NCBI GenBank assembly: GCA_015233405.1
Contig: JADFXT010000001.1
Location: 169,386 to 233,385, forward strand
DNA length: 64,000 bases
From: Candidatus Omnitrophota bacterium
GTDB taxonomy: Bacteria > Omnitrophota > Gorgyraeia > Zapsychrales > Zapsychraceae
Reading direction: 5' to 3'
Shown here: positions 20,836 through 35,856 of the stretch, one piece after another
Layout: each line of letters begins with the position of its first letter
Numbering within the stretch: the stretch's first letter is position 1
Translations under genes and position numbers: made by a program
Notes under the pieces: model-generated
The model's input: only the letters and a program-made list of their open reading frames with translations
What the model was told of the DNA's origin: nothing
Database searches by the model: none

Positions 20836-21108
20836 TTGAAAATAAAAAGAGTTTTACCTTTATCATTAGCTAAGATCACAGGCGTTATTGCGATGTCCTT
20901 TGGACTCATTATAGGCGTGATTATGACTTTTATGACAATTGTTGCCGGGGGTGGGAATGACCCTATGCAAAAATTTATGGGGTATATTGCCTTTATTATT
21001 GCTCCTCTTGGGTATGGGATGATCGGTTTTTTGATGGGATTGATACAATCTTGGCTTTTTAATTTAGCAGCCAAGCGGTTGGGCGGATTAGAAATCGAGA
21101 CGGAGTAA
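20836..21108 (+). CDS. small integral membrane protein (TTG start)
   Basis: 90-aa ORF with three hydrophobic segments and a GAAGGGGG sequence upstream. Confidence 0.45.
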   Translation: MKIKRVLPLSLAKITGVIAMSFGLIIGVIMTFMTIVAGGGNDPMQKFMGYIAFIIAPLGYGMIGFLMGLIQSWLFNLAAKRLGGLEIETE

Positions 21109-21488
21109 TGAACATGTCTTATAAAATATTGGTTGTTGATGATGATCCTGTCGATGTCCGTTTGATTCAGGCGATTTTAATGGCCCGTGGCTATCAGGCG
21201 ACGACAGCCGTGGATGGATGTGAGGCCCTGGCAAAGATTCGAAGCGAAAATCCTCATCTGGTGGTCTTGGATGTTATGATGCCCGAGGCCAATGGTTATG
21301 ATGTTTGTTATGAGCTTCGGTTTAATGATGAGTTCCAGAAGATCCCCATTCTTATTTTGACGCTGCGCGAACAGGAAATTGACGAAGAAATCGCGACGCG
21401 CCTTCACATGAAATATCTTCCCAAGCCCGTAGATGCCAATCTTCTTGTGGAATCCATTGAAGGTCTTTTATCCGGGACTAAAGCCTAG
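21108..21488 (+). CDS. stand-alone CheY-like receiver protein
   Basis: ILVVDDD, LDVMMP, and KP at the expected positions. No output domain. Confidence 0.85.
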   Translation: MNMSYKILVVDDDPVDVRLIQAILMARGYQATTAVDGCEALAKIRSENPHLVVLDVMMPEANGYDVCYELRFNDEFQKIPILILTLREQEIDEEIATRLHMKYLPKPVDANLLVESIEGLLSGTKA

Positions 21489-21499: not shown

Positions 21500-22423
21500 A
21501 TGATTGTATCCAAAAACCTTTCCAAACAATTCGGTGAGTTTGAAGCCCTTAAAAATGTCTCTTTTGAGATTGAACAAGGAGAGATCGTGGGTTTCTTAGG
21601 GCAGAATGGCGCCGGCAAGACCACGTTAATGCGGATCTTAACGGCGTATTTGCCTTCCAGTTCAGGCCAAGCCTTTGTTGGAGGGGAAGATGTTTCCTTG
21701 AATCCTTTGGCTGTTCATAAAAAGATCGGATATCTTCCGGAAACCCCTCCATTGTATCCCAATATGACCGTAAAAGCTTATTTGAGATTTGCCGCGCAGT
21801 TAAAAGATGTGGGGGTTAAATTTCAAAAAGCACAAGTGGAACACGTTTTGGAAGAATGCCGTCTTGAGGATGTTCAAAATCAAGTGATTGGGACTTTATC
21901 AAGAGGATATAAGCAGAGAGTCGGTATTGCCCAGGCGATCGTTCATGAGCCGGAGGTGATCATTTTAGATGAACCGACGAATGGGTTGGATCCTATTCAA
22001 ATCCTTCACGTCCGGGAGTTGATCCGTAAATTGGAGCATAAGCGCACCGTGATTGTCAGCACCCACATTCTTTCTGAAATTGAACAGCTTGCCAAAAGGG
22101 TCCTTATTATTAAAAAAGGGGAAATCGTGGTTGATTCTAATCTGGAGAAATTTCTGATTCCCGATGATAGAAAACAGATCTTTGTTAAAGTCAAAGGCGA
22201 GGAATTTCACATTGAGCAGGCGGTCAAAGACACCAACAGTGTAAAGCAGATCAATATTGAATTCTTAGGCGAGGATATTTATGAGCTGCACCTGGAGAAT
22301 ACCAATAATGTCGCCCATTATGGTGAACTCGTCCAGAATTTTATTAAATATGGCATTAAAGTGATCGAGATCAAAGAGAAAAAAGGGACCTTGGAAGAAG
22401 CGTTCTTAAAAATCAATAAATAA
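21500..22423 (+). CDS. ABC transporter ATP-binding protein (GldA-like)
   Basis: Walker A GQNGAGKTT, signature LSRGYKQR, and Walker B IILDEP. Confidence 0.9.
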   Translation: MIVSKNLSKQFGEFEALKNVSFEIEQGEIVGFLGQNGAGKTTLMRILTAYLPSSSGQAFVGGEDVSLNPLAVHKKIGYLPETPPLYPNMTVKAYLRFAAQLKDVGVKFQKAQVEHVLEECRLEDVQNQVIGTLSRGYKQRVGIAQAIVHEPEVIILDEPTNGLDPIQILHVRELIRKLEHKRTVIVSTHILSEIEQLAKRVLIIKKGEIVVDSNLEKFLIPDDRKQIFVKVKGEEFHIEQAVKDTNSVKQINIEFLGEDIYELHLENTNNVAHYGELVQNFIKYGIKVIEIKEKKGTLEEAFLKINK

Positions 22424-22430
22424 AAAGCCC

Positions 22431-23147
22431 ATGAAAAAGATATTTGCCATTGCCAACAAAGAGCTTTCCGGATATTTCCGGTCGCCGATAGCCTATGTCG
22501 TCTTGATCGTTGCGGTCACGGTCTTTAATGTCTTCTTTTTTATGATCATTGACGAGAATCAGGAAGCGACCTTACGCGATGTGTTTAAAGTGATGGAGTT
22601 TCTGTTTGTGTTTATTGTTCCCATCTTGACCATGAAAGTCTTTGCCGAAGAAAAGCAATTGGGGACCATGGAATTCTTGATGACGACCCCGACGACGCAT
22701 ATGCAGATCGTCCTGGGAAAATATTTAGGGACGTTGGTCTTTTTTACGCTCATCATGTGCTGGACGCTACCGTATTATGGGATTATCAAATTCTTTAGCC
22801 ATCCGGACACGATGACGATGATGACCGGCTATATCGGCATCTGGCTCGAGGGCGCCTTTTTTATCGCGGTGGGACTTATGGTCTCCTCCTGGACGCGCAG
22901 CCAAATTGTTTCGGCGATCTTGTCGTATGTTCTTTTATTCTTTCTTTATTTTGCTTCAGCGCTGGTCAAATATACGGGTGGATTCTTTCAAAGCATCATA
23001 AAATATCTTGATGTTATGGGGCACACACAAAATTTTATCGTCGGGCTTTTGTCGTCATCGGACGCGATTTATTTTATTAGCGGCATTGTGTTTTGCCTGG
23101 TGATGACACGCATCAGTATTGATACAAGGATCTGGGACAATATCTAA
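22431..23147 (+). CDS. ABC-2 type permease (GldF-like)
   Basis: Six-TM hydrophobic profile, directly after the ATPase gene. Confidence 0.75.
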   Translation: MKKIFAIANKELSGYFRSPIAYVVLIVAVTVFNVFFFMIIDENQEATLRDVFKVMEFLFVFIVPILTMKVFAEEKQLGTMEFLMTTPTTHMQIVLGKYLGTLVFFTLIMCWTLPYYGIIKFFSHPDTMTMMTGYIGIWLEGAFFIAVGLMVSSWTRSQIVSAILSYVLLFFLYFASALVKYTGGFFQSIIKYLDVMGHTQNFIVGLLSSSDAIYFISGIVFCLVMTRISIDTRIWDNI

Positions 23148-24761
23148 ATGAACGATGAACCCAAAAAATATCCGCTGTTCGTCTTATTTTTCTTAAGTCT
23201 GGCCTGCCTGCTGTATGCCTTTGGGCTTTGGTTTATTGAGCATACCCTTTATTTACGCTGTATCTTTCTTTTTGCCATCGGCGGATTTTCTTTTCTATTG
23301 ACTTTAGGCCATGCGATTTATTTAAAAGCGCCAAAATCCAAAAATTTTTATAAAAAATGTTTTTTTGCCTCAACCCTTATTGCCTTGTGGGTGGTGTGGC
23401 TTACGGCGGTCAATTTTTTAGGAAGCCGCTATGATATTCATTATGATGTGACTGCTTTTCAGCAGCACACGATGTCCGAAAATACCGTCGAGCTTCTCAA
23501 AAATTTGAAAACGAAAGTCCGCATCACGGTCCTTTATGTGGGGAGCGCACCGAAATATTTGGAAGATCTGTTAAATGGATACAAAAACGTTTCTGCCGGG
23601 CTTGTGGAATTTGAAATCATTGACCCGATCGAGAATATCGGCTACGCGGCGCGGTTTGGTAATGTCATCAGCGGCAAACAAAAGAAGGTCATTCTTGAGT
23701 CGGGAAAAGAGCGGCAGGATGTGGATTTTTCCGACCAGGACCTTGATGAAAACCTACTTAATAATGCGCTGGTGCGCGTCACGCGTTTAAAACGTACGGC
23801 TTACTTTTTGACCGGGCACAGGGAATACAATATTTTTGAAACATCTGAAACGGGTTTAAGCACTTTTGCCTCATTACTCGACGACAATAATATCAAGCCC
23901 AGACGGTTACTTTTGGATCAAAATGGGGTTATCCCCAAAGATTGTGATGTTTTGATCATTGCCGGGCCGAGATCATTTTTGTCGCCGAAGGAAGAGAAAG
24001 CAATCGAGGATTATTTGGAACAAGGCGGCGATGCCTTATTTTTAATTGAAAATACGGTTGTGACCACACCTGACAAGCCTCTGACGGAAAAAGAAAAAGA
24101 ATTAAATCCGTCGCTCAATAGCATTTTAAATCAGTGGGGAGTCAATGTCGAAAAAGATGTGGTCGTGGATTTGGCCAGCCATGCCAGCGGCGATGTGGGT
24201 TCGCCGGCGACCCGCAATTATATGACGCACCGCGCGATTGTTGGTGACTTAGATTATACGTTTTATGTCCGGCCGCGTTCGATTTCTATGACGAAAGATC
24301 GTCGGCAGTCCATTAAACTGGCGCCTTTGGTTTTAACCGCATCCGACCAGCAAAGCTGGGGAGAGACCAACCGTTATCTGAATGTCAAATATGACGCCAA
24401 AGAAGACCGTCCGGGCCCGGTGCCGATCGCTTATGTGGTCTGGGAAGCCAAGTCAGCGCTTAAAGACGGAAAAGTCAATGGGAAGGACAAGCCGTCCGAT
24501 ACCCGCATCGCTGTTTTTACCGACGCTGATTTTCTTACCAATGCGTTTATTAATCAATACAGTAACGCGCAAATGGGGCTGAATGTCGTCAATTGGCTTT
24601 CTGAGATGGATTATAAGCCGTTCGTTAAAAATAAACACGTGGAAGTTGTGCGCCTTGATTTGACCAGCAAACAAAAACGCGTCGTGGCGTTTATCCTTTT
24701 CCTCATGCCTTTGACCATTCTAATTGCCAGCCTTATTTTCTTCTTTTCCAAGAAATCCTAA
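23148..24761 (+). CDS. GldG-like ABC-transporter auxiliary protein
   Basis: N- and C-terminal TM anchors. The central region resembles the ABC_transp_aux family (…YFLTGHxE…, …LIIAGP…). Recollection only. Confidence 0.65.
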   Translation: MNDEPKKYPLFVLFFLSLACLLYAFGLWFIEHTLYLRCIFLFAIGGFSFLLTLGHAIYLKAPKSKNFYKKCFFASTLIALWVVWLTAVNFLGSRYDIHYDVTAFQQHTMSENTVELLKNLKTKVRITVLYVGSAPKYLEDLLNGYKNVSAGLVEFEIIDPIENIGYAARFGNVISGKQKKVILESGKERQDVDFSDQDLDENLLNNALVRVTRLKRTAYFLTGHREYNIFETSETGLSTFASLLDDNNIKPRRLLLDQNGVIPKDCDVLIIAGPRSFLSPKEEKAIEDYLEQGGDALFLIENTVVTTPDKPLTEKEKELNPSLNSILNQWGVNVEKDVVVDLASHASGDVGSPATRNYMTHRAIVGDLDYTFYVRPRSISMTKDRRQSIKLAPLVLTASDQQSWGETNRYLNVKYDAKEDRPGPVPIAYVVWEAKSALKDGKVNGKDKPSDTRIAVFTDADFLTNAFINQYSNAQMGLNVVNWLSEMDYKPFVKNKHVEVVRLDLTSKQKRVVAFILFLMPLTILIASLIFFFSKKS

Positions 24762-24814: not shown

Positions 24815-24916
24815 ATACTAAATCCGAAATCCGAAACAAATCCGAAATCTGAAAATTTTAAACATTGAAGTTTGAATTTTTGATTTTTGTTTCGAATTTC
24901 GATATTCGAATTTTAC
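24815..24916. repeat. AT-rich long imperfect palindrome, copy 2
   Basis: AAATCCGAAATCCGAAACAAATCCGAAATC ... TTTGTTTCGAATTTCGATATTCGAATTT. Confidence 0.75.
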
Positions 24917-24997
24917 AAAGAGAGTTTTTTGGCTTTATAACATTTAATGGTATTTTTCCTATATATATTTTATACTTTATATAGAAGTTAGATTTAG

Positions 24998-25090
24998 TGA
25001 ACCGAAACGGCAAACCCATCGTAAGGTGGGGACGCAAAGTTAGAGGGTCCTGGAATAGGATAGCCTGACTACCGAAAGCGCTAGAATATT
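24998..25090 (+). promoter_or_regulatory. c-di-GMP-I (GEMM-I) riboswitch-like aptamer
   Basis: ACGGCAAACC-CAUC-GUAA-GGUG-GGGACGCAAAG... matches the conserved GGCAAACC / GNRA hairpin / GGGACGCAAAG blocks of GEMM-I, for example Vc2. Confidence 0.72.
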
Positions 25091-25093
25091 TAA

Positions 25094-25132
25094 GCCTATT
25101 CCTAATGATGCACGGGAGTAGGCGTTTTTTTT
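25094..25132 (+). terminator. riboswitch expression-platform terminator
   Basis: GCCTATTCCT (25094-25103) pairs with GGGAGTAGGC (25114-25123), followed by G and T8. CCTATTCC can alternatively pair with GGAATAGG (25052-25059). Confidence 0.6.
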
Positions 25133-25172
25133 GGGATGCTTATGAAGTAAAAGCGATATGAAGAATGTTTTT

Positions 25173-25249
25173 GTCATCCCCGCAATTTTTAGGCGGGGAT
25201 CCACAAGGGTTGAATATATGGATTCCCGACAGAGGCTTTCGGGAATGAC
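25173..25249. repeat. GC-rich hairpin-pair element, copy 2 (in the 5' leader of the giant ORF)
   Basis: GTCATCCCCGCAATTTTTAGGCGGGGATCCAC ... TGGATTCCCGACAGAGGCTTTCGGGAATGAC. Confidence 0.8.
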
Positions 25250-25304
25250 AGCAGTGAAAAAGGAATTACCAGTAGTTTTAGGACGAAAAAAGGGGGCAAT
25301 AAGG

Positions 25305-28300
25305 ATGTTTAGGGGGCAAGGCACAACAAGAAGTAACATACTAAAGACTATTAGTCTTATAGTCCTCTTTATTTTTATTCCTCAGACTTTATTCGCCCAA
25401 ATCTCTTTATCCAATCTTCCAACGCCTGGAACCATGGTCGCAACCAGTGCTTCATTTGTCCCACCGGTGTTAAAAGGGATGAAGGTCGATCTCAAGCAGC
25501 CGTTTCAATTTGATTTTATCCTCGATACCGGAAACTCCAATCTTAAAGATGATGAGCTTAAAGAAGAATCGAATAAACTTATTCGTTATTTTCTCTCGTC
25601 CTTGACCATTCCGGAAAAAGATTTATGGGTCAACTTGTCTCCGTATGAGAAAAATAGGATCATTCCCGACGAGTTTGGCACCACGGAAATGGGCCGCGAC
25701 TTATTGGCGCAGGATTATATCCTTAAACAGATAACGGCTTCGCTTATGTATCCGGAGAATGAAACCGGCAAGGCGTTTTGGCAGAAGGTTTATAAGAAAG
25801 CGTATGACCTTTATGGGACGACCGATATCCCGACGGATACATTTAATAAAGTGTGGATCGTTCCTGATAAAGCTGTTGTTTATGAGAACCCGTCACCTAA
25901 GCCTGGCGAGGCAACGGTGTTTGTGGTCGAGGCGAGGCTGAAGGTGATGTTGGAGGAGGATTATTTTGCGACATCGAATACTGTAGGGGCGGGGTTTCCC
26001 CGCCCTGAGGATAAAGGGCGCGGGAACCGCGCCCCTACGGCAATAATCAAAGAGGTCATTATTCCTATTTTGGAAAAAGAAGTCAATGAGGGCCAGAACT
26101 TCGCCCAACTACGTCAGGTGTATTATTCGCTCATTCTTGCCAAGTGGTACAAGGACAGCCTGAAGGAAAGTATTCTAAACCGTAAATATTCCGGCCAGAA
26201 AAAGGTCATGGGCGTCGACCTGGCTGGCAAAGAAGATAAACAAAAGATCTACGAGCAATATCTCGCGGCGTTTAAGAAAGGCGCATTCAATTACATCAAA
26301 GAAGAATACGATGCCAATTCCAAAACGCTGATCCCTCGTAAATATTTTTCCGGCGGGGCGAATATGGGGAAAGTTCCCTTGGCAAAGACCGGCGATTTGG
26401 CGATGACGTCTAGGAATCAAACTGGGAAATTGTTGGAGGTTGCCGGGAGGCTTATTGATCCGCAGAAGATCGTCGAGAAAGAGACTAGGGATGTCCGCGC
26501 CTTGATGACGGAAGAAGAAAAACAATATTTCCAAAAGGTTTTTCCTGCCCTCAATTTAGAAAAAGCCCTGGAAGTCCCCCCGATAGAAACGGTCCGAAAT
26601 GCTGAAGAATTGAAAAGGAAAAGGACCGATGCCAGAGCCAAAAATTGGGAGAATTATTTAAAGAACCAAAAGGATTTACGAACGGATATCTTGCTTTTAT
26701 TGGCTGATATCAAAAACGGGACGATTTTTACACAACGAGATTTTATAGACCGGTTGGCAGGTCTTAATAAGATTTTATTAACAGGCAAAGATGGCAAAAC
26801 TTTTTATCTTGCACCCACCTTGTCCTCTTTTATGTCCGTAAAAAAACTGCATGCCGATGAGTCCAATCGGCAGAACCAGACACTTTCTGAGCTCGCAGGC
26901 GAATACAGGAGCACCTCAACCAAATACGGCGCGCTCTTAGTAAAATTATTTAGAGAGATTAAAAATTTTACGGAATTAAAGAAAGATTCCAATACCCTTG
27001 ATGTCCTGAAACAGATTGCTTCGATCTATGAAATCGCCATGGAACAATTTTTATTTGTGAGCGGGAACAATTCCTTATTTATGAATATGGCAAACGGCTT
27101 ACTACGGCTTTATGGCTTCGACGGAATCGCCCATTATCAACTTGATATGAAGCTCACCGCCCGTATTTTTGGTAAATCCATTAAGAGGGATTTTATAAAG
27201 CTGGTTTTAAAGGCGAACCCACAGATGTCTTTGCCTGCCCATTGGAAATCGCAGGTATCATCTCGCAAACAAACAATGAAAGAAATTATAGAGGAAAATC
27301 AGCGTTTCGATCGTGCAATGACGGTCAAGAATGATGCGCGCCAGGATTCCACAAAATTGTACAAAAGAATTTCAAGCAGGATACCTATTGTATTACGTCG
27401 TGGTGCGGTTGCTGTTGGATTATTAGGGTTAGCTCTTTTACCTCTAAGCGATAATTTTCAGATGAGAGATCTTCCTCCTGCAAATCTTGCCAAGATTGCG
27501 CTTCAAGGCAATAAGGAAGCTTTGGATATTCTCAAAAATCTTGCGGATGATCAAGGCAATGCTTCCGCCCAAAAAGCTATAGAAACTCTTCCTATTAAAA
27601 CACTGGCGGACCTGACTGCTCAAGGGAATATAACCGCCTTTAGGATTCTCTTAAATCGGATGCGAATGAACAATCTCGTCGCACAGAATGCCTTAAAAAC
27701 TCTGCGCGTTGATTTGCTTGTTCAGCGTTTAAATAAAGGGGACCGAGACGCTTTCTTTCTTCTGCTCGATCTGGGTCAGGATGCTAATAACCTTAATGCT
27801 CAAGAAGCTTTCAACAATATTCAACCGCAGAAACTTGCTGAACTCATTTCCAGAGATGGAAATGTAGGTGCGACAGACATTCTTGAGAATCTTGCTTTAT
27901 GGAAAGATGACACTGGCATTGTGGAAATTTTAAGAACAGTTAAAGTCCAAAAGCTTGCCGAACAGGCCTATCAGGGAAAGAGGGATGCTTTTGATGTTAT
28001 CGCATATCTTTATCAAAAGTATAACAACGTTTCTGCTAAAAACGTTTTAAGTCTATTCCCCGTGCAGAGGATCGTTAAATCTGTTGTTCAGGGGAATATG
28101 GACGCCTATCTTATGTTGGAAAGTCTTAGTGCTTTTAAGAACCTCGGCACGAGAGAGATTTTAAGAAATCTTAATGTCCAACAACTCACCGAACGTGCCT
28201 ATCAGGGGAATAAAGATGCCATAAATATTCTCATCATGTTGGATAAAGACAATCAGAATCCCGCTGCCCAAAAGGCGCTCAAGGATATGGCTGTCCAACT

Positions 28301-31300
28301 TATCTCAAAAGATAAGAAGATCTTTTCCTCTCAAATAAGAAGTCTTATTCCTTATTGCGATTTAAATACCTTGATGGATTTGTTGTTGATCGATAAGTCC
28401 TCGATCAAAGATCCTGAATCTTTTCGCCCAGCTTTATATTATCAGATCGCGGATAGAATTTTATCTGAACTGCAAGCTAATCCGAATCTCGTCGGCAAAG
28501 AAGCCCAATGGGCAAAGTTTAGGAGTAATTATAAAAAAGCTATTGCTGGCATGGAAGGCATAGAACAATATTCTCCCCAAGTGATGGACATCGTCTATAA
28601 GAGCATCGATTTGATGGGGACTGAAAAATTGGCGGCTGTTAGTAAAGAAGTGGAGAATGAATTTCATGTCCCTCCGATGAGAATGCTTTTTTATAATTCT
28701 ATGCCTCGAGCGGTTACCTGGCTTGTCGATGCCTATCAAGAAGTAACCCAGGCAAGTCCGAATAATAAACTTGATTTTAATTTCTTTTATGCCACGGCGC
28801 TTGTGGAAGGTTGGCCTTTAGTTGGGCGGACCGTGATGGAGGGTGCTCAATATTTGGATGTTACAACTACTCAGCCTATGGGGTTAGACAGATTCCCGAG
28901 CGTTATGGATAAGTTGATAAAGGAAAAGAAATTACCAGGAGGAGAAAATTTTAGAAAAAGAATCAATCTTTATAATCACCGCTATCACGGAAGATATCAA
29001 TATGGACAATTTAGAGATGTGACAAGCGCCCTTGATGCTCTTGGCGCGATGATCCTGGAAGATGAGGAGTATTTCCGGCAAGAATTGACCGCAAGAGGTA
29101 TAAATCCAAGTGGTGTGAATGTAGATGCCTTTAGGGTCGGGACCTATCTTCATTTCTGTACGCCTGGGGATCTTTTTAAACAGTACTTTGAAAAATATGC
29201 TCACAACCAAGAAACCGGACGTTATGATCCTCAAGGACTTATCGGCAAAAGAGGAAAAGGTAAAGGAAAACCTGAAGGGCAAGGCGAATTCGGTAATGGT
29301 ATTTACAACGCTCAGTACCTTGGTGCCACAGCTAAGCTGCTAGATTTGTTGTTCCCTCAGATGAACGTTTTACTTAAAACGTCCACCGTCAAACCATCAG
29401 CGAAACAAGAGAATCGTCAGACGTCGCGGTTGCCTTCTTCCGTACAAAATCCAAATAAAGTTTTTTATGAAGCCATTCATAAAAGAAAAGCGGATTTAAA
29501 TGTTGCTTTAAGAAAAGTTTTTGCGGCCAGCGGAGATGTTTTGATTGGACGGTTTACCGGCGGACGGATTTTTAATGAACAAGAAAAAGCCCGCGCCGAA
29601 GCTGCGAATAAAGCGGTCAATATCATTATGGCGGAACAGGCGCATTTGACAAGCTTGTTAAATCGTGCGCTGGATCATTTTGTCGGGAGGAATACAGAGG
29701 CAATACAAAAGCAGAAAGAGGAACTATTTTTTAATAATGTGGCTCGTCTTGTTTCACAACAAAATGGCAGCGCGGACGCGGCGATGACGGTCAGATTTAT
29801 CCGGCCCATCTTGCCGATAGTTTTCTCTGGTTTAATTGCTCTTTTGTCCAATTGTTCACCCGTCTATTTGAACGAAAATCCGATCAATCCTATTCCCACA
29901 TCTGTCGGCGAGCAATCTCCGCAGGAAAGGATTAATTCTTTAGTCCAGGTTGTTCTTAATACTTCAAACACTGTAGATGAACGCGTTAAAGCGTTTGATT
30001 CTTTAAAAAGCCTAAGGGCTGTTGATGCGTTAATTCAGTTATCGATGAGCGAAAAAGCGACTGTCAGCGCACCGGCAACTTACCGGTTGGCGGATCTCAA
30101 CGACTCGACGGCATTTGACAAGGTGCTCAAGATATTTATCAATGGAAAATCGCAGGAGCGGGATAAGACAATTTTTGTTTTAAGCGTGCTTAGCGATAAT
30201 TTGGAGAGAGGACATCCCTATAAATATCTTTTTACATGCCTTCGCGATAGAAGCGATGAACTTGAAAATAAAACATTGTCAGCCCAGGACATGTATTTAG
30301 TTTACAGCAACCACGAGTTTCAACGTTTGACGAATGGGATGGAAGAGAATGATCAATTTAGTGTAGCGCGGGGAATAGAAAATATCCTTGTTCGTTTTCA
30401 TAAGAATATTAACGACCAGAATATTACACTCGCTGCTCCTGATATGGTCGAGGCGTGGCAGACCGAAGGCCATAATTTGGCGCTCGATGGGAACACACAA
30501 GTGATCGCCAGTTTTCACAAAGAGTTCGATAGCGAAAAAGTGAGTTTCGTTGAGCTCATGCGTCCATTCGGCATTATTCTTAAGGAGAATTCGCCGCAAT
30601 TCAGATTATTCTCAGGAAGCAATAATCCTTTCACGCTTTATAAGACGAGAAAAGGCCTTTGGCAAGCGATAGAGAATTCCAAAGGCCAGACATTGTTATT
30701 CTTTGAGCATCATGGCGACGGATTGCATCTCGCTTCTTCAAGTTATCCTACCTTTGGTATGGGGATGTTAAGTTATGACAAATTAGCCAGGAGTTTAAGC
30801 CAACGGGCACGGAAAACCGGAGGAGATCTTTCGAAAGTTACGATTGTTATTAATGCGTGTTATTCGTCGGATTATTCGTTGGAGACGCTCAATGCGCTCT
30901 ACGATGATATCGCTAAACTTTCTCGTGTTCTTATGAATGATAAAGAAATCACAGGTTTCCCGACGATCGTAACTTCCACCAACAGAGGCATGTCAGGTTT
31001 CTCAACGTTAATGAGCATGCAAAAAGTTTTCGCGGGGAAACAAGAAATCCATGTGTCGGATTTTTATGATATCGCACGAGAAATGGCGGGACGGCATCAA
31101 TCCATGGGATTCTTTTTAAATATCCCTCGAGAAAAATTGGAACAATTAAGAAAGAAACTTGGAGCTCCGGATAAAAATGTTAATTATAAAAGCGGCGAAC
31201 AACTGAATCCAAATTTACCGATGTTAAATGCCCAATTATCTCCTAAGACATTCAATGATATTGCTCGTCAGGTTAGTCAAACCGGCAATCCAACTTTTGC

Positions 31301-33701
31301 TGTTGTCATGCCTGGACGCTCCGATGCGGCGATGATGACGGGCGGACAAGCCAAAAAATTCCAGGAATTTTTAGATGAATTATTTCAAAGAGAGAAAGAC
31401 CCGGACAAGGAACTTCTTAAAGCGGTTGTCTCCGGAGCAAAACCCGCGGAATTGGTAGGATATCCTAATTTAAATGCCTATGCATTGAACCTTTATAAGG
31501 AAATGCATAATGCGTTCGGTCTTGATTTTGTGATATCGCAAGAAAGAAATAATATATTGATTTATAACGTCGACGCTTTGAAAAATCGTTTAGTGGCAGC
31601 ACAATATTTATTAAATGATATTAAAGGCGGTGAAACGATTTCTGAGGAAATGCTTGAGACAGACTTGCATGATTTTCTGCAATCGACCTTAGACACGTTT
31701 AAGAGTGACCCTTCCGCTTATCACAAGGTCATCGGCATAGCGGTCGGATATCCGTTATCTAAAGTTTGGGGGTTTGACCCAAATCGTAGCATCACTAGCG
31801 TCGGTCTTCCCATGGCCAGTCAATATGCAGCGGGCGTAAGCGATAAATATGGCAAGGAATTTTTAAAGTGGTTAAAAGGCGGAGCATTGGACTTTCCTAT
31901 TAATGGTAAGGAAGATATTGTTTATTTTGAAGACCAGGCTGGCCATGTTTTTGATTTAGCTGTGATGCCACAGCATTCCCGCGTCGTCGTGGAAAAGGTC
32001 ATGGATGAGCCTATCGAATTTGATTTTGGCAACACCAAAGAGTCGACGATGGCGATAAAATTCAGAATGAAGTTTATCAATAATGAAACAGGCGACACTG
32101 TTGAGGAAAAAACAGTGTATTCCCGGGAAGATAAAACGGTTGTCACTTTAGATGATCAGGGCAAAGAGCTGTCGAGACGTACGACGAGTAATGATAATCA
32201 CAAAGTCAGGGTTGAGAATATTACACCAAGAGTTGTTAACCGCGCGGAGGAATATTTAGATTCGGTTTATGAGATTTTCAAACAAATTAGAAAATTCGAC
32301 TCTCTCGCCGGTGACAAGGCGATGATGAGCAAACCTACTGTCAAGACGATGAAAGGCACTTACGGCGGAGAATGGAAGCTTACCAATACAAATACAACCG
32401 AACTTTTGCCTTTGGAGCAGCGTCAGAAAATCAAGAAGGTCGTCTGGACTTTTTCGGGACGCCGCCTTTCTCGGCCATTGTTAGCAAATGCCATGCTGAT
32501 CCCTCAAATAGAACAATTATTCCCGAATGCACAAATAAATATTTACTGCAATCCTGAACAATATTTACTTAAGGCCATGGCTTATGGAAAGCGCGTACGT
32601 ATTATTAACAAGCTCGAACGACAACACATTACGCGGGATACTTTGGTCATTAATTCTGATTTTACATTTCATGAGGGAAGGTACCCGCATTCTGCCGGTG
32701 TCCTGTCAATGGTAACTACTAATGACATTATATTTAAGAAAGGGTCTGCAATCGCAGAGTATAATTTTGAAAAAGCATATTATGATCTCAAAGATTCTAA
32801 GCAGGGCCTATATTATCGTAGGGCTGCGGATGCCTTGCGGGCGTTAGGGCTTAAGGAGATCAAAGGCGACGAGCCTGTGGTTTTTGGACCGGATCAATTT
32901 AGCGACGAGCTTAAATCGAAAATAGCGGCGATACGACAGACCTATTTTGTTGGTAAACCGAAAGAATCCCCGGTTATTTTCTTTAATGCCGCGTGGGGGT
33001 CTGGGTTATCCCGTGGCGAAAGAGATATAAAGGATTGGCAACAATTAATCGGCAATGTTTTACAGAATACCGATGCGTACATCGTTATTAATAAAGGAGA
33101 TCCTACTTGGGTGTCCAGTCAACAGGGAAAAATGCCTATGCGGTTCCAAATTGATGACTTATATCAAAATTTACGTAAATGGTATCCGAAGCAAGCTCAT
33201 CGTTTGGTTGAGATACCATCTGAAGGCTTAGGCAAAGATCTTATTCGGCTGATGGCCGTCATGTCGTTGTCGGATGCCGTCATCACCGAAAATTCCGGTG
33301 TGACGCACTTGGCTGATTTTATGAATAAACCATGCGCGTCTTTCTTGAATCCTTGGTTTCTTAAGTATATGACCAAACGTGTTGATATTTTGGATGATGA
33401 TTTGCAAAAGGCGGATTTGCAAATCAAGGATTTCTTAAAGAAACAAAATATCAATTATCAACCAGAATCCGACGCGGCGATGAGTACGACGGCGCCCGGC
33501 GGTATTGATTTTAATCCGGATCGTTTGAAGCTCGAAAAGAAAGGCGTTCACAGCGATTTTGATTTGCCGACGGACGCCGGGGATCTTGATAAAATTCAGA
33601 TCAACGGTTTGGTTCCGGTTATTTTGCACATCACGCCTGTTACTAACTTGCCGGTTCTTTTAGGCGCGAATCAGAATAATGAAACAATAAAGCCGCTCTA
33701 A
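25305..33701 (+). CDS. giant modular secreted/membrane-associated protein (about 2,798 aa from ATG 25305)
   Basis: Uninterrupted 8.4-kb ORF. ATG 25305 has AGGGGG 8-14 nt upstream and yields a signal peptide MFRGQGTTRSNILKTISLIVLFIFIPQTLFAQ. The ORF-track start at 25158 translates the repeat element. Confidence 0.85.
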   Translation: MFRGQGTTRSNILKTISLIVLFIFIPQTLFAQISLSNLPTPGTMVATSASFVPPVLKGMKVDLKQPFQFDFILDTGNSNLKDDELKEESNKLIRYFLSSLTIPEKDLWVNLSPYEKNRIIPDEFGTTEMGRDLLAQDYILKQITASLMYPENETGKAFWQKVYKKAYDLYGTTDIPTDTFNKVWIVPDKAVVYENPSPKPGEATVFVVEARLKVMLEEDYFATSNTVGAGFPRPEDKGRGNRAPTAIIKEVIIPILEKEVNEGQNFAQLRQVYYSLILAKWYKDSLKESILNRKYSGQKKVMGVDLAGKEDKQKIYEQYLAAFKKGAFNYIKEEYDANSKTLIPRKYFSGGANMGKVPLAKTGDLAMTSRNQTGKLLEVAGRLIDPQKIVEKETRDVRALMTEEEKQYFQKVFPALNLEKALEVPPIETVRNAEELKRKRTDARAKNWENYLKNQKDLRTDILLLLADIKNGTIFTQRDFIDRLAGLNKILLTGKDGKTFYLAPTLSSFMSVKKLHADESNRQNQTLSELAGEYRSTSTKYGALLVKLFREIKNFTELKKDSNTLDVLKQIASIYEIAMEQFLFVSGNNSLFMNMANGLLRLYGFDGIAHYQLDMKLTARIFGKSIKRDFIKLVLKANPQMSLPAHWKSQVSSRKQTMKEIIEENQRFDRAMTVKNDARQDSTKLYKRISSRIPIVLRRGAVAVGLLGLALLPLSDNFQMRDLPPANLAKIALQGNKEALDILKNLADDQGNASAQKAIETLPIKTLADLTAQGNITAFRILLNRMRMNNLVAQNALKTLRVDLLVQRLNKGDRDAFFLLLDLGQDANNLNAQEAFNNIQPQKLAELISRDGNVGATDILENLALWKDDTGIVEILRTVKVQKLAEQAYQGKRDAFDVIAYLYQKYNNVSAKNVLSLFPVQRIVKSVVQGNMDAYLMLESLSAFKNLGTREILRNLNVQQLTERAYQGNKDAINILIMLDKDNQNPAAQKALKDMAVQLISKDKKIFSSQIRSLIPYCDLNTLMDLLLIDKSSIKDPESFRPALYYQIADRILSELQANPNLVGKEAQWAKFRSNYKKAIAGMEGIEQYSPQVMDIVYKSIDLMGTEKLAAVSKEVENEFHVPPMRMLFYNSMPRAVTWLVDAYQEVTQASPNNKLDFNFFYATALVEGWPLVGRTVMEGAQYLDVTTTQPMGLDRFPSVMDKLIKEKKLPGGENFRKRINLYNHRYHGRYQYGQFRDVTSALDALGAMILEDEEYFRQELTARGINPSGVNVDAFRVGTYLHFCTPGDLFKQYFEKYAHNQETGRYDPQGLIGKRGKGKGKPEGQGEFGNGIYNAQYLGATAKLLDLLFPQMNVLLKTSTVKPSAKQENRQTSRLPSSVQNPNKVFYEAIHKRKADLNVALRKVFAASGDVLIGRFTGGRIFNEQEKARAEAANKAVNIIMAEQAHLTSLLNRALDHFVGRNTEAIQKQKEELFFNNVARLVSQQNGSADAAMTVRFIRPILPIVFSGLIALLSNCSPVYLNENPINPIPTSVGEQSPQERINSLVQVVLNTSNTVDERVKAFDSLKSLRAVDALIQLSMSEKATVSAPATYRLADLNDSTAFDKVLKIFINGKSQERDKTIFVLSVLSDNLERGHPYKYLFTCLRDRSDELENKTLSAQDMYLVYSNHEFQRLTNGMEENDQFSVARGIENILVRFHKNINDQNITLAAPDMVEAWQTEGHNLALDGNTQVIASFHKEFDSEKVSFVELMRPFGIILKENSPQFRLFSGSNNPFTLYKTRKGLWQAIENSKGQTLLFFEHHGDGLHLASSSYPTFGMGMLSYDKLARSLSQRARKTGGDLSKVTIVINACYSSDYSLETLNALYDDIAKLSRVLMNDKEITGFPTIVTSTNRGMSGFSTLMSMQKVFAGKQEIHVSDFYDIAREMAGRHQSMGFFLNIPREKLEQLRKKLGAPDKNVNYKSGEQLNPNLPMLNAQLSPKTFNDIARQVSQTGNPTFAVVMPGRSDAAMMTGGQAKKFQEFLDELFQREKDPDKELLKAVVSGAKPAELVGYPNLNAYALNLYKEMHNAFGLDFVISQERNNILIYNVDALKNRLVAAQYLLNDIKGGETISEEMLETDLHDFLQSTLDTFKSDPSAYHKVIGIAVGYPLSKVWGFDPNRSITSVGLPMASQYAAGVSDKYGKEFLKWLKGGALDFPINGKEDIVYFEDQAGHVFDLAVMPQHSRVVVEKVMDEPIEFDFGNTKESTMAIKFRMKFINNETGDTVEEKTVYSREDKTVVTLDDQGKELSRRTTSNDNHKVRVENITPRVVNRAEEYLDSVYEIFKQIRKFDSLAGDKAMMSKPTVKTMKGTYGGEWKLTNTNTTELLPLEQRQKIKKVVWTFSGRRLSRPLLANAMLIPQIEQLFPNAQINIYCNPEQYLLKAMAYGKRVRIINKLERQHITRDTLVINSDFTFHEGRYPHSAGVLSMVTTNDIIFKKGSAIAEYNFEKAYYDLKDSKQGLYYRRAADALRALGLKEIKGDEPVVFGPDQFSDELKSKIAAIRQTYFVGKPKESPVIFFNAAWGSGLSRGERDIKDWQQLIGNVLQNTDAYIVINKGDPTWVSSQQGKMPMRFQIDDLYQNLRKWYPKQAHRLVEIPSEGLGKDLIRLMAVMSLSDAVITENSGVTHLADFMNKPCASFLNPWFLKYMTKRVDILDDDLQKADLQIKDFLKKQNINYQPESDAAMSTTAPGGIDFNPDRLKLEKKGVHSDFDLPTDAGDLDKIQINGLVPVILHITPVTNLPVLLGANQNNETIKPL
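25983..26038. repeat. GC-rich compound palindrome embedded in-frame in the giant ORF
   Basis: GTAGGGGCGGGGTTTCCCCGCCCTGAGGATAAAGGGCGCGGGAACCGCGCCCCTAC. The outer ends GTAGGGGCG/CGCCCCTAC are reverse complements, with two inner hairpins. Confidence 0.75.
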
Positions 33702-33807
33702 GATTTTAGTAAAGGATTTCGCAGAGAATAACGTTTATGTCTGTTGCTCTTTCTAAGGGGCTGTGATATATTTTACAGTAAGGATACATCATAAAAAGGA
33801 ATTCATT

Positions 33808-34005
33808 ATGTTAAAGCGTCATTTAAAAGGTCAAAGCATTACCGAGTATGTCTTGATTTTTGCGGCTGTTTCTATCGTCATTCTAATGGCCTTGGCGCCG
33901 AAACACGGGTTTGTCACTAAAGCCATTGATAACTCTCTGAACATATCGGTTTCAGCCATAGAAAATATGGTTCAAACCGTGAAGTATAATATTGATCTTC
34001 AATGA
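33808..34005 (+). CDS. Flp/Fap-type (type IVb) pilin-like protein
   Basis: MLKRHLKG|QSITEYVLIFAAVSIV fits the Flp prepilin G/xxxxEY motif followed by a hydrophobic helix. There is an AAAAAGGA RBS 7 nt upstream. Confidence 0.55.
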   Translation: MLKRHLKGQSITEYVLIFAAVSIVILMALAPKHGFVTKAIDNSLNISVSAIENMVQTVKYNIDLQ

Positions 34006-34439
34006 GTCCATCCTTAAAAACCACCCTCGAAGAGAAAAATTTAATCAGACGATATCTTATCTGGTGTTATAAGACGACCAAGGAATCTTTAGATAGGATT
34101 GACCGTTATTATACGCAGCTTAAGGCCGATGATTTTATCCTTAAGGAATTAAAGGCCGGCCAGGATTTTAAAAAAGAAGAAAGCAATCCAGCCTATAAAA
34201 CCCTTGTCAAAGGTTTTGAAGATTATATGGCCCAGAAGAAAATAAATGTCGACCAGAAAAAATATTCAGAGTGCGATTTAAAAAACTTGCATCCGGATTA
34301 TCTATATCTTAAGAACCGTTGTTCTGCCATTCAGAACGCCATTGTTCATTTCTTGGGCAAGAAAGAATTAAAGGCCATTCAACAGCTTTATGAACAGGAA
34401 ATGACTCAGCGCATTCTTCAATCCAGAGAACATACTTAA
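34002..34439 (+). CDS. hypothetical helical protein, ATGA-coupled to the pilin-like gene
   Basis: 145-aa ORF with a 4-nt overlap. No recognised motif. Confidence 0.55.
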   Translation: MSPSLKTTLEEKNLIRRYLIWCYKTTKESLDRIDRYYTQLKADDFILKELKAGQDFKKEESNPAYKTLVKGFEDYMAQKKINVDQKKYSECDLKNLHPDYLYLKNRCSAIQNAIVHFLGKKELKAIQQLYEQEMTQRILQSREHT

Positions 34440-34476
34440 TTTTATTTTATAGAGAAATAGAGTGAAACGGGCGAGA

Positions 34477-34734
34477 TTATTTGTGACGCATATCGCGGAT
34501 TCTTTGTTTCTGGGCTTCCATCATGTTTTTACGCTGTTGTTCAATATCATCCATCATCTGCTTTTGTTGTCTGGCTTTGAGTGTAGAATCGATATTGACT
34601 TTCGGCGGTGGAGTTTTGATCAGGCTTTTGAGCCCTTTCATAGCGCCTAAGAATAGGACGCAGGCAATGATGACGCCTGAAATGATGAGGATTGGGAATT
34701 CGTTATCTGCTGCTCCGGAAGTATATTTTTTCAT
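34477..34734 (-). CDS. small single-pass membrane protein with basic/Gln-rich tail
   Basis: ORF taken from MKKYTSGAADNEFPILIISGVIIACVLFLG... The longer ORF-track start is unlikely. Confidence 0.45.
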   Translation of the reverse strand: MKKYTSGAADNEFPILIISGVIIACVLFLGAMKGLKSLIKTPPPKVNIDSTLKARQQKQMMDDIEQQRKNMMEAQKQRIRDMRHK

Positions 34735-34811
34735 AACACAGTAATTATAGAATAAAAAAAACAGTTGAGCAAATTTTTCCTTAAGAAATTTAAGAAAGAT
34801 CACATCGCAAA

Positions 34812-35465: not shown

Positions 35466-35496
35466 AAAGTTTTTTACCTTTCCCGTTTTATTAAAC

Positions 35497-35525
35497 TTGA
35501 CTATTACAAAGGGCGATAGTATAAT
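35497..35525 (+). promoter_or_regulatory. sigma70-like promoter for rpsO-pnp (TTGACT, 17 nt spacer, TATAAT)
   Basis: ttgact at 35497-35502 and tataat at 35520-35525. Confidence 0.5.
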
Positions 35526-35586
35526 GCCCACTCAATAAATAAAATAATCATTAATATCTATAAAAAGTAAATATAAGGAGGCTGCG

Positions 35587-35856
35587 TTGGTATTACTGAA
35601 AGAAAAAAAGACCGAAGTTATTGAAAACTTCAAGAGCCATGCCAAAGACACAGGATCGGCGGAAGTACAGGTGGCCCTGTTAACTCAAAAAATTGATTAT
35701 TTAACGGAACATTTTAAGGCCCATAAGAAAGATTTTCATTCTCGTCGGGGTCTTTTAATGATGATTGGGAAAAGACGTCGTCTTTTAGCTTATCTTAAGA
35801 AAAAAGATCCGAAAAAATATCAGGAAACTATCGAAAAATTGAACATTAGAAAATAA
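35587..35856 (+). CDS. rpsO: 30S ribosomal protein S15 (TTG start)
   Basis: [35 protein letters not shown] signature. AAGGAGG RBS upstream. Confidence 0.95.

What the first reader, a model, noticed from the sequence alone, without database searches (positions are those of the whole stretch)
24998..25135. GEMM-I (c-di-GMP-I) riboswitch-like leader with a competing terminator upstream of the giant ORF
The RNA ACGGCAAACC-CAUC-GUAA-GGUG-GGGACGCAAAG-UUAGAGGG...CCUGACUACC reproduces the two most conserved blocks of the c-di-GMP-I aptamer. These are GGCAAACC, a GNRA-capped hairpin, and GGGACGCAAAG, as in Vibrio Vc2.

It is followed by a hairpin GCCUAUUCCU/GGGAGUAGGC and U8, which looks like an intrinsic terminator. 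The terminator 5' arm (CCUAUUCC, 25095-25102) is also perfectly complementary to GGAAUAGG (25052-25059) inside the aptamer P2 region. This gives mutually exclusive folds, as expected for a transcriptional switch.

The regulated gene would be the 8.4-kb ORF. I cannot tell the ON or OFF direction from sequence alone.
Basis: partly seen in the sequence, partly recalled or inferred. Interest (0 to 1): 0.75.

Follow-up and report, generated by a model that had tools for sequence, protein, structure and literature searches.

The report
Cyclic-di-GMP riboswitch before giant gene
This is an ordinary class-I cyclic-di-GMP riboswitch with its own transcription terminator; its only unusual side is that it sits in front of a 2,798-residue secreted protein of an uncultured Omnitrophota bacterium.

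Summary
Every quoted motif is at the stated coordinates. Rfam places a c-di-GMP-I-clan aptamer at 25000-25077 (+) with 60.1 bits and E 1e-11. A 10-bp hairpin (25094-25123) followed by U8 (25125-25132) comes next, then the ORF 25305-33701.

Rfam labels the hit RF03167, the 'GGC' variant. That label is a by-product of competition between related models. In a control batch, 22 of 24 ordinary class-I aptamers from metagenomes received the same label.

The window carries the canonical pocket residues with Vc2 spacing: G25009 (G20), C25033 (C44), A25036 (A47), G25063 (G83) and C25072 (C92). The predicted ligand is therefore c-di-GMP.

GGAAUAGG (25052-59) is a perfect complement of the terminator 5' arm. 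This is modestly non-random (p about 0.01 by exact match, about 0.05 by energy). It recurs in one homologous Omnitrophota riboswitch and is weaker in others.

Aptamer and terminator do not overlap, so they can coexist. I therefore favour an OFF switch (about 0.6), in which c-di-GMP promotes termination.

Only 2 of 80 related Omnitrophota large-protein genes carry such a riboswitch upstream, and the two closest full-length relatives do not. This is a new member of a known kind, of modest interest.

The parts
24993..24999 (+). Outer P1 helix, 5' strand (UUUAGUG)
   Evidence: RNAfold of 24990-25093 and longer transcripts pairs it with 25079-25085 (7 bp, 2 G-U). This is predicted only and could not be aligned across relatives.
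25000..25077 (+). c-di-GMP-I (GEMM-I) aptamer core
   Evidence: Rfam cmscan gives 60.1 bits and E 1e-11 over the full model 1-80. My own covariance model R1 gives 91.1 bits. Covariation in 23 relatives supports the fold.
25003..25004 (+). Inner P1 pairs: C25003-G25074 and G25004-C25073
   Evidence: RNAfold. The same CG/CG pairs are seen in about 10 of 23 aligned relatives (helix 1).
25009..25009 (+). G equivalent to Vc2 G20, which contacts one guanine of the ligand
   Evidence: It is the base immediately 5' of the G25010-C25011 / G25034-C25035 pairs and lies 27 nt before the A47 equivalent, as in Vc2 and Vc1 (alignment; residue roles from PMC4744006 and PMC5888326).
25015..25030 (+). First hairpin: CCCAUC / GGUGGG capped by the GNRA tetraloop GUAA (25021-25024)
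   Evidence: The stem is 100% paired, with 4 covarying pairs in relatives (helix 3).
25033..25036 (+). C25033 (Vc2 C44, interhelical pair) and A25036 (Vc2 A47, which stacks between the two guanines of the ligand)
   Evidence: GGGACGCAAAG block. The RF03167 consensus has G where the window has A25036.
25038..25070 (+). Second hairpin (P2 here; P1b/P3 in Vc2 nomenclature), with bulged A25062-G25063 (G25063 = Vc2 G83)
   Evidence: Six covarying pairs are seen in relatives (helix 4).
25052..25059 (+). GGAAUAGG: apical loop plus 3' strand of the P2 tip; candidate anti-terminator strand
   Evidence: Exact complement of 25095-25102. p = 0.009 by exact match and 0.05 by energy. The identical pairing is present in L067.
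25071..25072 (+). A25071-C25072, equivalent to Vc2 A91-C92 (C92 pairs with the second guanine of the ligand)
   Evidence: alignment. C25072 lies 9 nt after the G83 equivalent, as in Vc2.
25079..25085 (+). Outer P1 helix, 3' strand (CGCUAGA)
25082..25088 (+). Linker UAGAAUA, a second possible competitor for the terminator 5' arm (pairs with UAUUC-CUA, 25097-25104); it overlaps the outer P1 3' strand
   Evidence: Read from the sequence. A GAAUA or AAUAG word complementary to the arm is also present in the linkers of L051 and L067. It is weak and inferred.
25094..25123 (+). Intrinsic terminator hairpin
   Evidence: 10 bp, -15.1 kcal/mol. It is in the MFE of every transcript that contains it. Homologous arms occur in L051, L067 and L109.
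25125..25132 (+). U8 tract
25172..25250 (+). Copy of a dispersed palindromic repeat (two hairpins) inside the leader, between the terminator and the start codon
   Evidence: Full copies lie at 4811-4912, 52274-52375 and 58381-58485. It is probably not part of the switch.
25290..25296 (+). Shine-Dalgarno-like AAGGGGG, 8 nt before the ATG
   Evidence: Read from the sequence.
25305..33701 (+). Regulated gene: a 2,798-aa protein with a signal peptide, a conserved N-terminal module (about residues 33-351) and a conserved C-terminal 'GGIDFNP...' module
   Evidence: Paralogues P0011 and P0003 start at the same MFRGQGT/MFRGHGT. It has no Pfam or NCBIfam family.

Best explanation
The leader of the large ORF carries a canonical class-I cyclic-di-GMP riboswitch (GEMM-I). 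It controls the gene by intrinsic transcription termination.

**Proposed sequence of events.**
- Transcription starts somewhere in the AT-rich spacer upstream of 24993.
- The nascent RNA folds into the three-helix aptamer (24993-25085).
- c-di-GMP is bound at the junction by G25009, A25036 and C25072.

**Direction of the switch.** The terminator (25094-25132) lies wholly downstream of the aptamer, so both can form at once. The ligand-bound state is therefore most simply the terminated state, which makes this an OFF switch (my probability about 0.6).

**State without ligand.** The less rigid aptamer lets the terminator's 5' arm be captured before its 3' arm is made. The capturing strand would be GGAAUAGG at the tip of P2 (an 8-bp, pseudoknot-type pairing). 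The linker UAGAAUA, which the outer P1 helix otherwise holds, may also capture it. RNA polymerase would then read through into the 8.4-kb gene.

**Shown versus inferred.**
- Shown: aptamer identity, conserved pocket residues, the terminator, the complementarity and the gene arrangement.
- Inferred: ligand binding, the transcription start site, use of the competing helix and the direction of the switch.

The confidence given (0.85) is for the identity and the termination-based control; the OFF direction alone stands at about 0.6.
For: **Identity.**
- Rfam clan hit with E 1e-11 over the full length. A second clan member also passes its own threshold but is hidden by the tool.
- RF01051's threshold is 35 bits.
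- All five signature residues sit at the Vc2 spacings: G20 to A47 is 27 nt, C44 to A47 is 3 nt, and G83 to C92 is 9 nt.
- Covariation in 23 relatives: 83% of cells paired, 11 pairs with double changes, 0 of 500 shuffles as good, and slid controls at most 46% paired.

**Terminator.** 10 bp followed by U8, -15.1 kcal/mol.

**Coexistence.** The minimum-energy structure of 24990-25135 contains the aptamer and the terminator together at -43.7 kcal/mol.

**Competing helix.**
- Exact 8-mer complement, p 0.009.
- The same pair is present in the homologous riboswitch L067, although the linker and the terminator loop differ.
- L109 keeps 6 bp with one A-U to U-A exchange.
- Read by eye: relatives with stand-alone terminators also place a complement of the 5' arm in P2 (L116 about 13 bp, L186 9 bp, L112 7 bp). 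The automated duplex search confirmed only L186 (p 0.01). For L116 and L112 it chose other partners, with p 0.20 and 0.54.

**Precedent.** All class-I c-di-GMP riboswitches of C. difficile act as transcriptional OFF switches. One of them precedes an adhesion protein (PMC11477304).

**Recurrence.** The same riboswitch type lies upstream, on the same strand, of two other members of this protein family in other genomes (L067, L020).
Against: - No experiment, and no transcription start site.
- Forcing the GGAAUAGG:CCUAUUCC helix costs 8.6 kcal/mol relative to aptamer plus terminator in a model without pseudoknots (-35.1 versus -43.7). Read-through would therefore have to be kinetic or use a pseudoknot.
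- The pairing drops to 5 bp in L051, which has the same terminator arm. It is not evident in L164 or L154.
- The energy-based significance is only p about 0.05.
- P2's tip lies far from the ligand pocket, so ligand control of its accessibility is indirect.
- Biology would suit an ON switch equally well, since high c-di-GMP usually raises surface proteins. Bc2 in front of a collagen adhesin is an ON switch (PMC4933901).
- The two closest full-length relatives of the protein have no riboswitch.
Confidence: 0.85

Rival explanations
1. Same aptamer and same terminator, but an ON switch. The terminator forms by default. c-di-GMP binding would fix P2 so that its apical loop presents GGAAU to the terminator 5' arm (a loop-strand pseudoknot), or would otherwise disfavour the terminator. 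The large surface protein would then be made when c-di-GMP is high.
For: - Without any ligand term, the nearest-neighbour minimum-energy structure already contains the terminator. This fits a repressed-by-default design like Bc2 (PMC4933901).
- c-di-GMP commonly induces adhesins (class-II examples).
- The protein has a signal peptide.
Against: - The terminator does not overlap the aptamer. The ON-type relatives found here (L130, L148, L168, L190) all use the aptamer's own 3' strand as the terminator 5' arm.
- There is no physical reason why ligand should make the P2 loop more available. The loop is equally exposed without ligand.
Confidence: 0.3
2. It is a member of the RF03167 'c-di-GMP-I-GGC' variant class, as the Rfam table says, and senses a ligand other than c-di-GMP.
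For: RF03167 is the best clan hit, at 60.1 bits against a gathering score of 59.
Against: - The RF03167 consensus has G at model position 37 (GACGC-G-AA) and G at position 74. The window has A at both (A25036, A25071), like Vc2 (alignment).
- In a control batch of ordinary GACGCAAA-type aptamers from unrelated metagenomes, 22 of 24 were also labelled RF03167. All of them also passed a second clan model, so the label does not discriminate.
- That the three letters of the name stand for positions 20/47/92 is my recollection of Weinberg et al. 2017. The paper was not available.
Confidence: 0.04
3. It is a decaying or non-functional copy, or a chance resemblance. The hairpin plus U8 would be just a constitutive attenuator or the end of a short non-coding transcript.
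For: - The riboswitch is sporadic in this gene family (2 of 80 loci) and absent from the closest relatives.
- P1 is short in the Rfam alignment.
- A repeat element has been inserted into the leader.
Against: - E 1e-11.
- Every ligand-contacting and tertiary-contact residue is intact.
- A 7-bp outer P1 helix is available.
- Aptamer plus terminator is kept as a module in at least four Omnitrophota-type loci with different downstream genes.
Confidence: 0.05

Closest known systems
Vc2, the c-di-GMP-I riboswitch of Vibrio cholerae (Rfam RF01051; residues as cited in PMC4744006 and PMC5888326)
   Same: - The blocks GGCAAACC and GGGACGCAAAG are the same.
- The first hairpin carries a GNRA tetraloop.
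- G20, C44, A47, G83 and C92 have equivalents at identical spacings (27, 3 and 9 nt).
   Different: - The tetraloop is GUAA rather than GAAA.
- P2 is 9 nt shorter.
- The junction before G20 is 4 nt rather than 5 nt, with C rather than G preceding G20. This variant is also seen in L122, L180 and L196.
- The expression platform here is an intrinsic terminator.
Class-I c-di-GMP riboswitches of Clostridioides difficile (Cd1 and others; PMC11477304)
   Same: - A class-I aptamer is followed by an intrinsic terminator.
- They are described as transcriptional OFF switches.
- One of them precedes a calcium-binding adhesion protein (CD2797).
   Different: - The phylum is different.
- The candidate anti-terminator strand here lies at the tip of P2 rather than in the P1 3' strand.
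- The direction here is untested.
Bc2 riboswitch upstream of the collagen adhesion protein Cap in Bacillus thuringiensis (PMC4933901)
   Same: A class-I aptamer plus terminator sits in the 5' UTR of a large surface protein gene.
   Different: Bc2 is an experimentally shown ON switch. The architecture here, a stand-alone terminator compatible with the folded aptamer, points the other way.
Rfam RF03167, the c-di-GMP-I-GGC variant
   Same: The scaffold is the same, and this is the highest-ranked Rfam model for the hit.
   Different: The window has A, not G, at the variant-defining position after GACGC. It also has A, not G, before the C92 equivalent.
Homologous riboswitch modules in other Omnitrophota-type contigs: L067, L051, L109 and L182
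   Same: - The aptamers are closely similar.
- The terminator arms are homologous (GCCUAUUCCU or GCCUAAUCCU).
- L067 lies before a gene of the same large-protein family.
   Different: - The downstream genes differ: a 77-aa secreted protein (L051), a response regulator (L109), and dockerin-type proteins of about 1,450 aa (L182).
- The P2-tip to terminator complementarity ranges from 8 bp down to weak.

Membership tests
c-di-GMP-I riboswitch (GEMM-I, RF01051 clan CL00126) | Covariance-model score at or above the curated threshold | tested here: met
   The clan hit is 60.1 bits with E 1e-11. One further clan model passes its own gathering score but is not named by the tool. RF01051's threshold is 35 bits. 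The RF01051 score itself could not be read out.
c-di-GMP-I riboswitch (GEMM-I, RF01051 clan CL00126) | Two side-by-side hairpins closed by P1, with a GNRA tetraloop on the first hairpin | tested here: met
   Shown by the Rfam alignment, by RNAfold, and by covariation in 23 relatives (83% paired, 11 doubly changed pairs). The tetraloop GUAA lies at 25021-24.
c-di-GMP-I riboswitch (GEMM-I, RF01051 clan CL00126) | Ligand-contacting residues G20, A47 and C92 | tested here: met
   G25009, A25036 and C25072, assigned by alignment and by spacing. The residue roles come from PMC4744006 and PMC5888326.
c-di-GMP-I riboswitch (GEMM-I, RF01051 clan CL00126) | Interhelical Watson-Crick pair (Vc2 C44-G83) | tested here: met
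   C25033 and the bulged G25063 occupy the corresponding positions. The feature is described as universally conserved in PMC4744006. The pairing itself is tertiary and not testable here.
c-di-GMP-I riboswitch (GEMM-I, RF01051 clan CL00126) | Specific, tight binding of c-di-GMP | not testable with these tools
   Needs in-line probing, ITC or equilibrium dialysis.
c-di-GMP-I riboswitch (GEMM-I, RF01051 clan CL00126) | Location in a 5' UTR, on the same strand as the downstream gene | tested here: inconclusive
   The strand and position are right: the element lies 228 nt before the ATG at 25305, with no intervening gene. No transcription start site is known, and only weak promoter-like words were seen.
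c-di-GMP-I-GGC variant (RF03167) | G in place of A47 (consensus GACGC-G-AA) | tested here: not met
   The window has A25036 (alignment). That the family name refers to this position is my recollection, since the source paper is not held.
c-di-GMP-I-GGC variant (RF03167) | Score above the RF03167 gathering threshold | tested here: inconclusive
   The threshold is met by 1.1 bits. However, 22 of 24 ordinary A47-type aptamers also meet it, so the criterion does not discriminate.
c-AMP-GMP riboswitch (GEMM-Ib) | A at position 20 | tested here: not met
   The window has G25009. That A20 is the determinant is from my knowledge of Kellenberger 2015 and Nelson 2015, which are cited in PMC7266159.
c-di-GMP-II riboswitch (RF01786) | Covariance-model match | tested here: not met
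   No match at E<=10 in 24850-25400.
Intrinsic (Rho-independent) terminator | A stable G+C-containing hairpin immediately followed by a U tract | tested here: met
   A 10-bp stem with 6 G-C pairs, -15.1 kcal/mol, then G and U8. The 10-nt loop is long, which is why the simple scan missed it.

The most novel reading that the evidence does not exclude
This Omnitrophota lineage of class-I c-di-GMP riboswitches may switch in an unusual way. Instead of the usual P1 3' strand, the tip of P2 (loop plus 3' strand) would capture the terminator 5' arm in a pseudoknot. The aptamer-terminator cassette would then be a portable module that has been placed in front of several different secreted or surface protein genes, including members of the large-protein family typical of this phylum. 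That would give the first direct regulatory input (c-di-GMP) for those genes.
Probability: 0.3. Interest if true: 0.45.

Novelty: new member of a known kind. Interest (0 to 1): 0.3.

Why it matters
- Omnitrophota are uncultured, and their very large envelope proteins have no known function or regulation.
- The two giant-gene papers read here mention PilZ genes and GGDEF domains near giant genes, but no riboswitch.
- A riboswitch states its signal in the sequence itself. For this gene, and for at least two relatives in other genomes, it would tie expression to c-di-GMP.
- The prediction can be tested in vitro without culturing the organism.
- There is also a practical point. Rfam's clan competition labels many ordinary c-di-GMP-I aptamers as the 'GGC' variant, which could mislead annotation pipelines about ligand specificity.

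Tried and rejected
1. **DNA of the paralogues in the same genome.** I looked up P0004, P0011, P0022, P0116, the related P0003 and the window's own protein. None is on record. Whether the paralogues that share the near-identical signal peptide also share the riboswitch remains unknown.
2. **Source paper for the GGC variant.** Weinberg et al. 2017 (PNAS) is not held. Other papers only name the family.
3. **Function of the regulated protein.**
   - No Pfam or NCBIfam family.
   - The AlphaFold model of the N-terminal module is mediocre (pLDDT 63).
   - It has no PDB fold match (best E 0.17).
4. **PilZ genes downstream**, as reported for giant genes. None is detectable in 33763-35853.
5. **GGDEF, EAL or HD-GYP motifs in the window's ORFs.** None found. 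This is uninformative for a 64-kb sample.
6. **A second alternative pairing.** The aptamer 3' strand GCCUGACUACC could pair with the terminator 3' arm (-11.0 kcal/mol). I dropped it because it is not conserved in L067 and would only give another terminator-like stem.
7. **Riboswitch as a general feature of the family.** Rejected. My own covariance model finds it on the gene's strand in 2 of 80 loci, plus one on the opposite strand. It finds none before the two closest full-length relatives.
8. **Reading out the RF01051 score directly.** Not possible, because the tool keeps only the best model of a clan.
9. **Structure in the leader downstream of the terminator (25133-25320).** It does not fold better than shuffles (z = 0.23). 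Its two hairpins belong to a dispersed repeat.

Full report
**1. The observation**

- GGCAAACC lies at 25009-16.
- The hairpin CCCAUC-GUAA-GGUGGG lies at 25015-30.
- GGGACGCAAAG lies at 25029-39.
- The stem GCCUAUUCCU (25094-25103) pairs with GGGAGUAGGC (25114-25123). It has 10 bp, two of them G-U, a 10-nt loop and an energy of -15.1 kcal/mol.
- G25124 and then U8 (25125-32) follow.
- GGAAUAGG (25052-59) is the exact complement of CCUAUUCC (25095-102).

The consensus terminator scan did not list the hairpin because it allows loops of at most 8 nt. RNAfold puts the hairpin in the minimum-energy structure.

**2. The direct test**

Rfam cmscan of the whole window finds one riboswitch. It is a full-length match at 25000-25077 (+) with 60.1 bits and E 1e-11. 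On the local region the E-value is 9e-14.

The reported model is RF03167 (c-di-GMP-I-GGC, gathering score 59). One further model of the same clan also passes its own threshold but is hidden by the tool. The core pattern occurs once in the window and never in 100 shuffles.

**3. Canonical aptamer or 'GGC' variant**

In the cmscan alignment the RF03167 consensus reads GGGACGC-G-AAg and cU-G-Ccg. The window reads GGGACGC-A-AAG and CU-A-CCG. It therefore differs from that model exactly where the model differs from ordinary class-I aptamers.

As a control I collected class-I aptamers from metagenomes with the pattern GCAAACC-NNN-CGTAAG-NNN-GGGACGCAAA. All of them have A at that position. I ran 20 loci through Rfam. 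Of the 24 aptamers found, 22 were labelled RF03167 (59.4-76.9 bits) and two were labelled RF01051. All 22 also passed a second clan model.

RF03167 gives much smaller E-values for the same bit score. For example, 64.5 bits gives 9.5e-13 with RF03167, whereas 65.2 bits gives 2.6e-10 with RF01051. The label is therefore a by-product of clan competition and not evidence for a variant.

The pocket residues named in the literature for Vc2 are G20, A47 and C92, together with the universally conserved interhelical pair (PMC4744006, PMC5888326). They map to G25009, A25036, C25072 and C25033/G25063. The spacings are the same as in Vc2: 27, 3 and 9 nt.

Position 20 is G, so the aptamer is not the c-AMP-GMP type either. 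That the name 'GGC' denotes positions 20/47/92 is my recollection. The source paper is not in the library.

**4. Fold**

A MAFFT alignment of the window with 22 relatives supports the structure.
- 83% of cells are paired, against 25-46% when the partners are slid.
- 11 of 22 pairs show changes on both sides.
- None of 500 shuffles reaches the observed values.

When a few more 5' bases are included, RNAfold adds an outer P1 helix. It pairs 24993-24999 with 25079-25085 (7 bp) beyond an internal loop and the inner CG/CG pairs 25003-4 with 25073-4. The functional element therefore spans about 24993-25132, and transcription must start upstream of 24993. No convincing promoter was found, and the start site is unknown.

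**5. Expression platform**

The terminator begins 9 nt after the outer P1 helix, so it does not overlap the aptamer. The two coexist in the minimum-energy structure of 24990-25135 (-43.7 kcal/mol). Forcing the GGAAUAGG:CCUAUUCC helix gives -35.1 kcal/mol in a model that cannot keep the base of P2, because no pseudoknots are allowed.

The complementarity is modestly non-random. An exact complement of at least 8 nt to the arm appears in 0.9% of dinucleotide shuffles of the aptamer. An energy-based duplex test gives z = -1.9 and p = 0.05.

Comparative evidence is mixed.
- L067 is a homologous riboswitch in another Omnitrophota MAG. It keeps exactly the same two 8-mers, although its linker and terminator loop are unrelated and its 3' arm differs. 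The test there gives z = -3.1 and p = 0.007.
- L109 keeps 6 bp, with one A-U to U-A exchange.
- L051 has the same terminator arm but only 5 bp of pairing.
- L164 and L154 show nothing comparable.
- Read by eye from the sequences, more distant relatives with stand-alone terminators often place a complement of the 5' arm somewhere in P2. The examples are L116 (about 13 bp at the P2 tip), L186 (9 bp) and L112 (7 bp). The automated duplex search confirmed only L186 (p 0.01). For L116 and L112 it chose other partners, with p 0.20 and 0.54.
- The ON-type relatives L130, L148, L168 and L190 all build the terminator from the aptamer's own 3' strand.
- A second, weaker competitor exists. The linker UAGAAUA (25082-88) overlaps the outer P1 3' strand and can pair with UAUUC-CUA of the arm. 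A GAAUA or AAUAG word is also present in the linkers of L051 and L067.

From this architecture the parsimonious reading is an OFF switch. A ligand-stabilised aptamer would leave the arm free, the terminator would form, and transcription would stop at about 25132. Without ligand, the arm would be captured kinetically and polymerase would read through.

I put this at about 0.6. Class-I riboswitches of C. difficile are OFF switches, whereas Bc2 before a collagen adhesin is ON. Direction cannot be settled from sequence.

**6. The regulated gene and its surroundings**

The window comes from a Candidatus Omnitrophica MAG. The protein is identical to HQL24_01030 on a 304,738-bp contig.

The ORF is open from 25158, but the likely start is ATG 25305.
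- A Shine-Dalgarno-like AAGGGGG lies 8 nt upstream.
- The N-terminus MFRGQGT... followed by a hydrophobic signal peptide is shared with paralogues that start there.

The 2,798-aa product has no Pfam or NCBIfam family. More than 1,900 Omnitrophota proteins match it at E<=1e-5. The top matches cover mainly an N-terminal module of about 350 aa at 50-65% identity. The two compared in detail also share a C-terminal module of about 60 aa around GGIDFNP. A structure model of the N-module is of middling confidence and matches nothing solved.

The upstream genes are GldA/F/G-like ABC transporter components. The downstream genes are small unknown ORFs, then rpsO and pnp.

**7. How general is the association**

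I fetched 80 loci of the N-terminal module from GTDB species representatives. I searched them with my own covariance model, built from the 23-sequence alignment.
- L067 has the riboswitch about 50 nt before the gene.
- L020 has it about 300 nt before the gene, with a large insertion in P2.
- L051 has one on the opposite strand, driving a 77-aa secreted protein.
- Rfam on 20 of the loci agrees for L067 and L020.
- The two closest full-length relatives, P0013 and P0019, share about 700 aa with the window's protein. They have short spacers without any aptamer.

The riboswitch is therefore a sporadic addition to individual genes of the family and not a family trait. The aptamer-terminator cassette itself recurs, with homologous terminator arms, in front of different genes.

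**8. Literature**

The two giant-gene papers read here do not mention riboswitches. One notes PilZ genes downstream of giant genes and GGDEF domains within them. A wider full-text search for Omnitrophota, giant and riboswitch listed no paper holding both 'Omnitrophota' and 'riboswitch' among its 15 best-ranked results. No PilZ gene is detectable downstream here.

**9. Verdict**

- It is a new member of a very well known riboswitch class and is found by the standard Rfam model.
- The points that go beyond routine annotation are the host phylum and target gene, the possible use of the P2 tip as the switching strand, and the misleading RF03167 label.
- Interest is modest, at 0.3.

Noticed in passing
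window 4811-4912, 52274-52375, 58381-58485 (full copies); 25172-25250 (shorter copy in the ORF leader); 50087-50114 (single hairpin): A dispersed palindromic repeat of about 105 bp sits in intergenic regions. It reads TGTCATCCCCGC-GAAA-GCGGGGATCCAG, then about 45 nt, then CTGGATTCCCGC-TTGC-GCGGGAATGACA. The core 10-mer with at most 1 mismatch occurs 18 times against 4.3 expected. It looks like a REP or MITE element. It is absent from the 200 loci held at the time.
   Followed up: partly
Rfam results for L082-L197: Rfam clan competition labels most ordinary c-di-GMP-I aptamers that have A at the A47 position as RF03167 'c-di-GMP-I-GGC'. This happened for 22 of 24 aptamers tested. RF03167 gives far smaller E-values at equal bit scores, and its gathering score of 59 does not separate the variant from the parent class.
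   Followed up: yes
L182 (metagenome contig, minus strand): riboswitches at 10815-10892, 6196-6274 and 1743-1821: Three near-identical riboswitch-terminator cassettes sit in tandem. Two of them precede proteins of about 1,450 aa with a dockerin-like C-terminus. The ORFs as listed begin at or upstream of the P1 3' strand (ATG in CCGCCAUGAAAA for 1892-6199). The terminator hairpin therefore lies inside the stretch that encodes the signal peptide.
   Followed up: partly
L051 312-409 (minus strand): This is a class-I aptamer with a variant core (GGCAAAACC and GGUGGCGCAAAG, that is, G in place of A43). It has the same terminator arm GGCCUAUUCCU and drives a 77-aa signal-peptide protein. It lies divergent from a large-protein gene.
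   Followed up: partly
L020 709-719 and 887-897: The aptamer's 5' strand GCCGAUAAAGG is complementary to CUUUUAUCGGC, which is followed by U6. That would make a long-range stem enclosing the whole aptamer, which has an insertion of about 70 nt in P2. A second hairpin with a U-rich tail follows.
   Followed up: no
window 24820-24854 and 24891-24910: Two 17-nt direct repeats (AAATCCGAAATCCGAAA) and a 10-nt palindrome (TTCGAATTTC/GATATTCGAA) lie in the AT-rich spacer between the upstream gene and the riboswitch. They might be an operator, a terminator of the upstream operon or part of the promoter region.
   Followed up: no
window 25305-33701 and proteins P0002-P0120: Omnitrophota large proteins share an N-terminal module of about 350 aa (signal peptide, DLWVNLSPYEK, NKVWIVPDKAVVYE, KYFSGG). 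The two compared in detail also share a C-terminal module of about 60 aa (GGIDFNP...LVPVI..ITP). Many top hits carry Pfam enzyme or repeat domains in the remainder, such as M48 peptidase, UbiB kinase, HEAT repeats and methyltransferases. Several paralogues occur per genome, and neither module is in Pfam or NCBIfam.
   Followed up: partly
window 21500-24761: An ABC ATPase, an ABC-2 permease and an ABC_transp_aux protein (a GldA/F/G-like trio) lie directly upstream of the riboswitch on the same strand. A stand-alone response-regulator receiver lies at 21108-21488.
   Followed up: no
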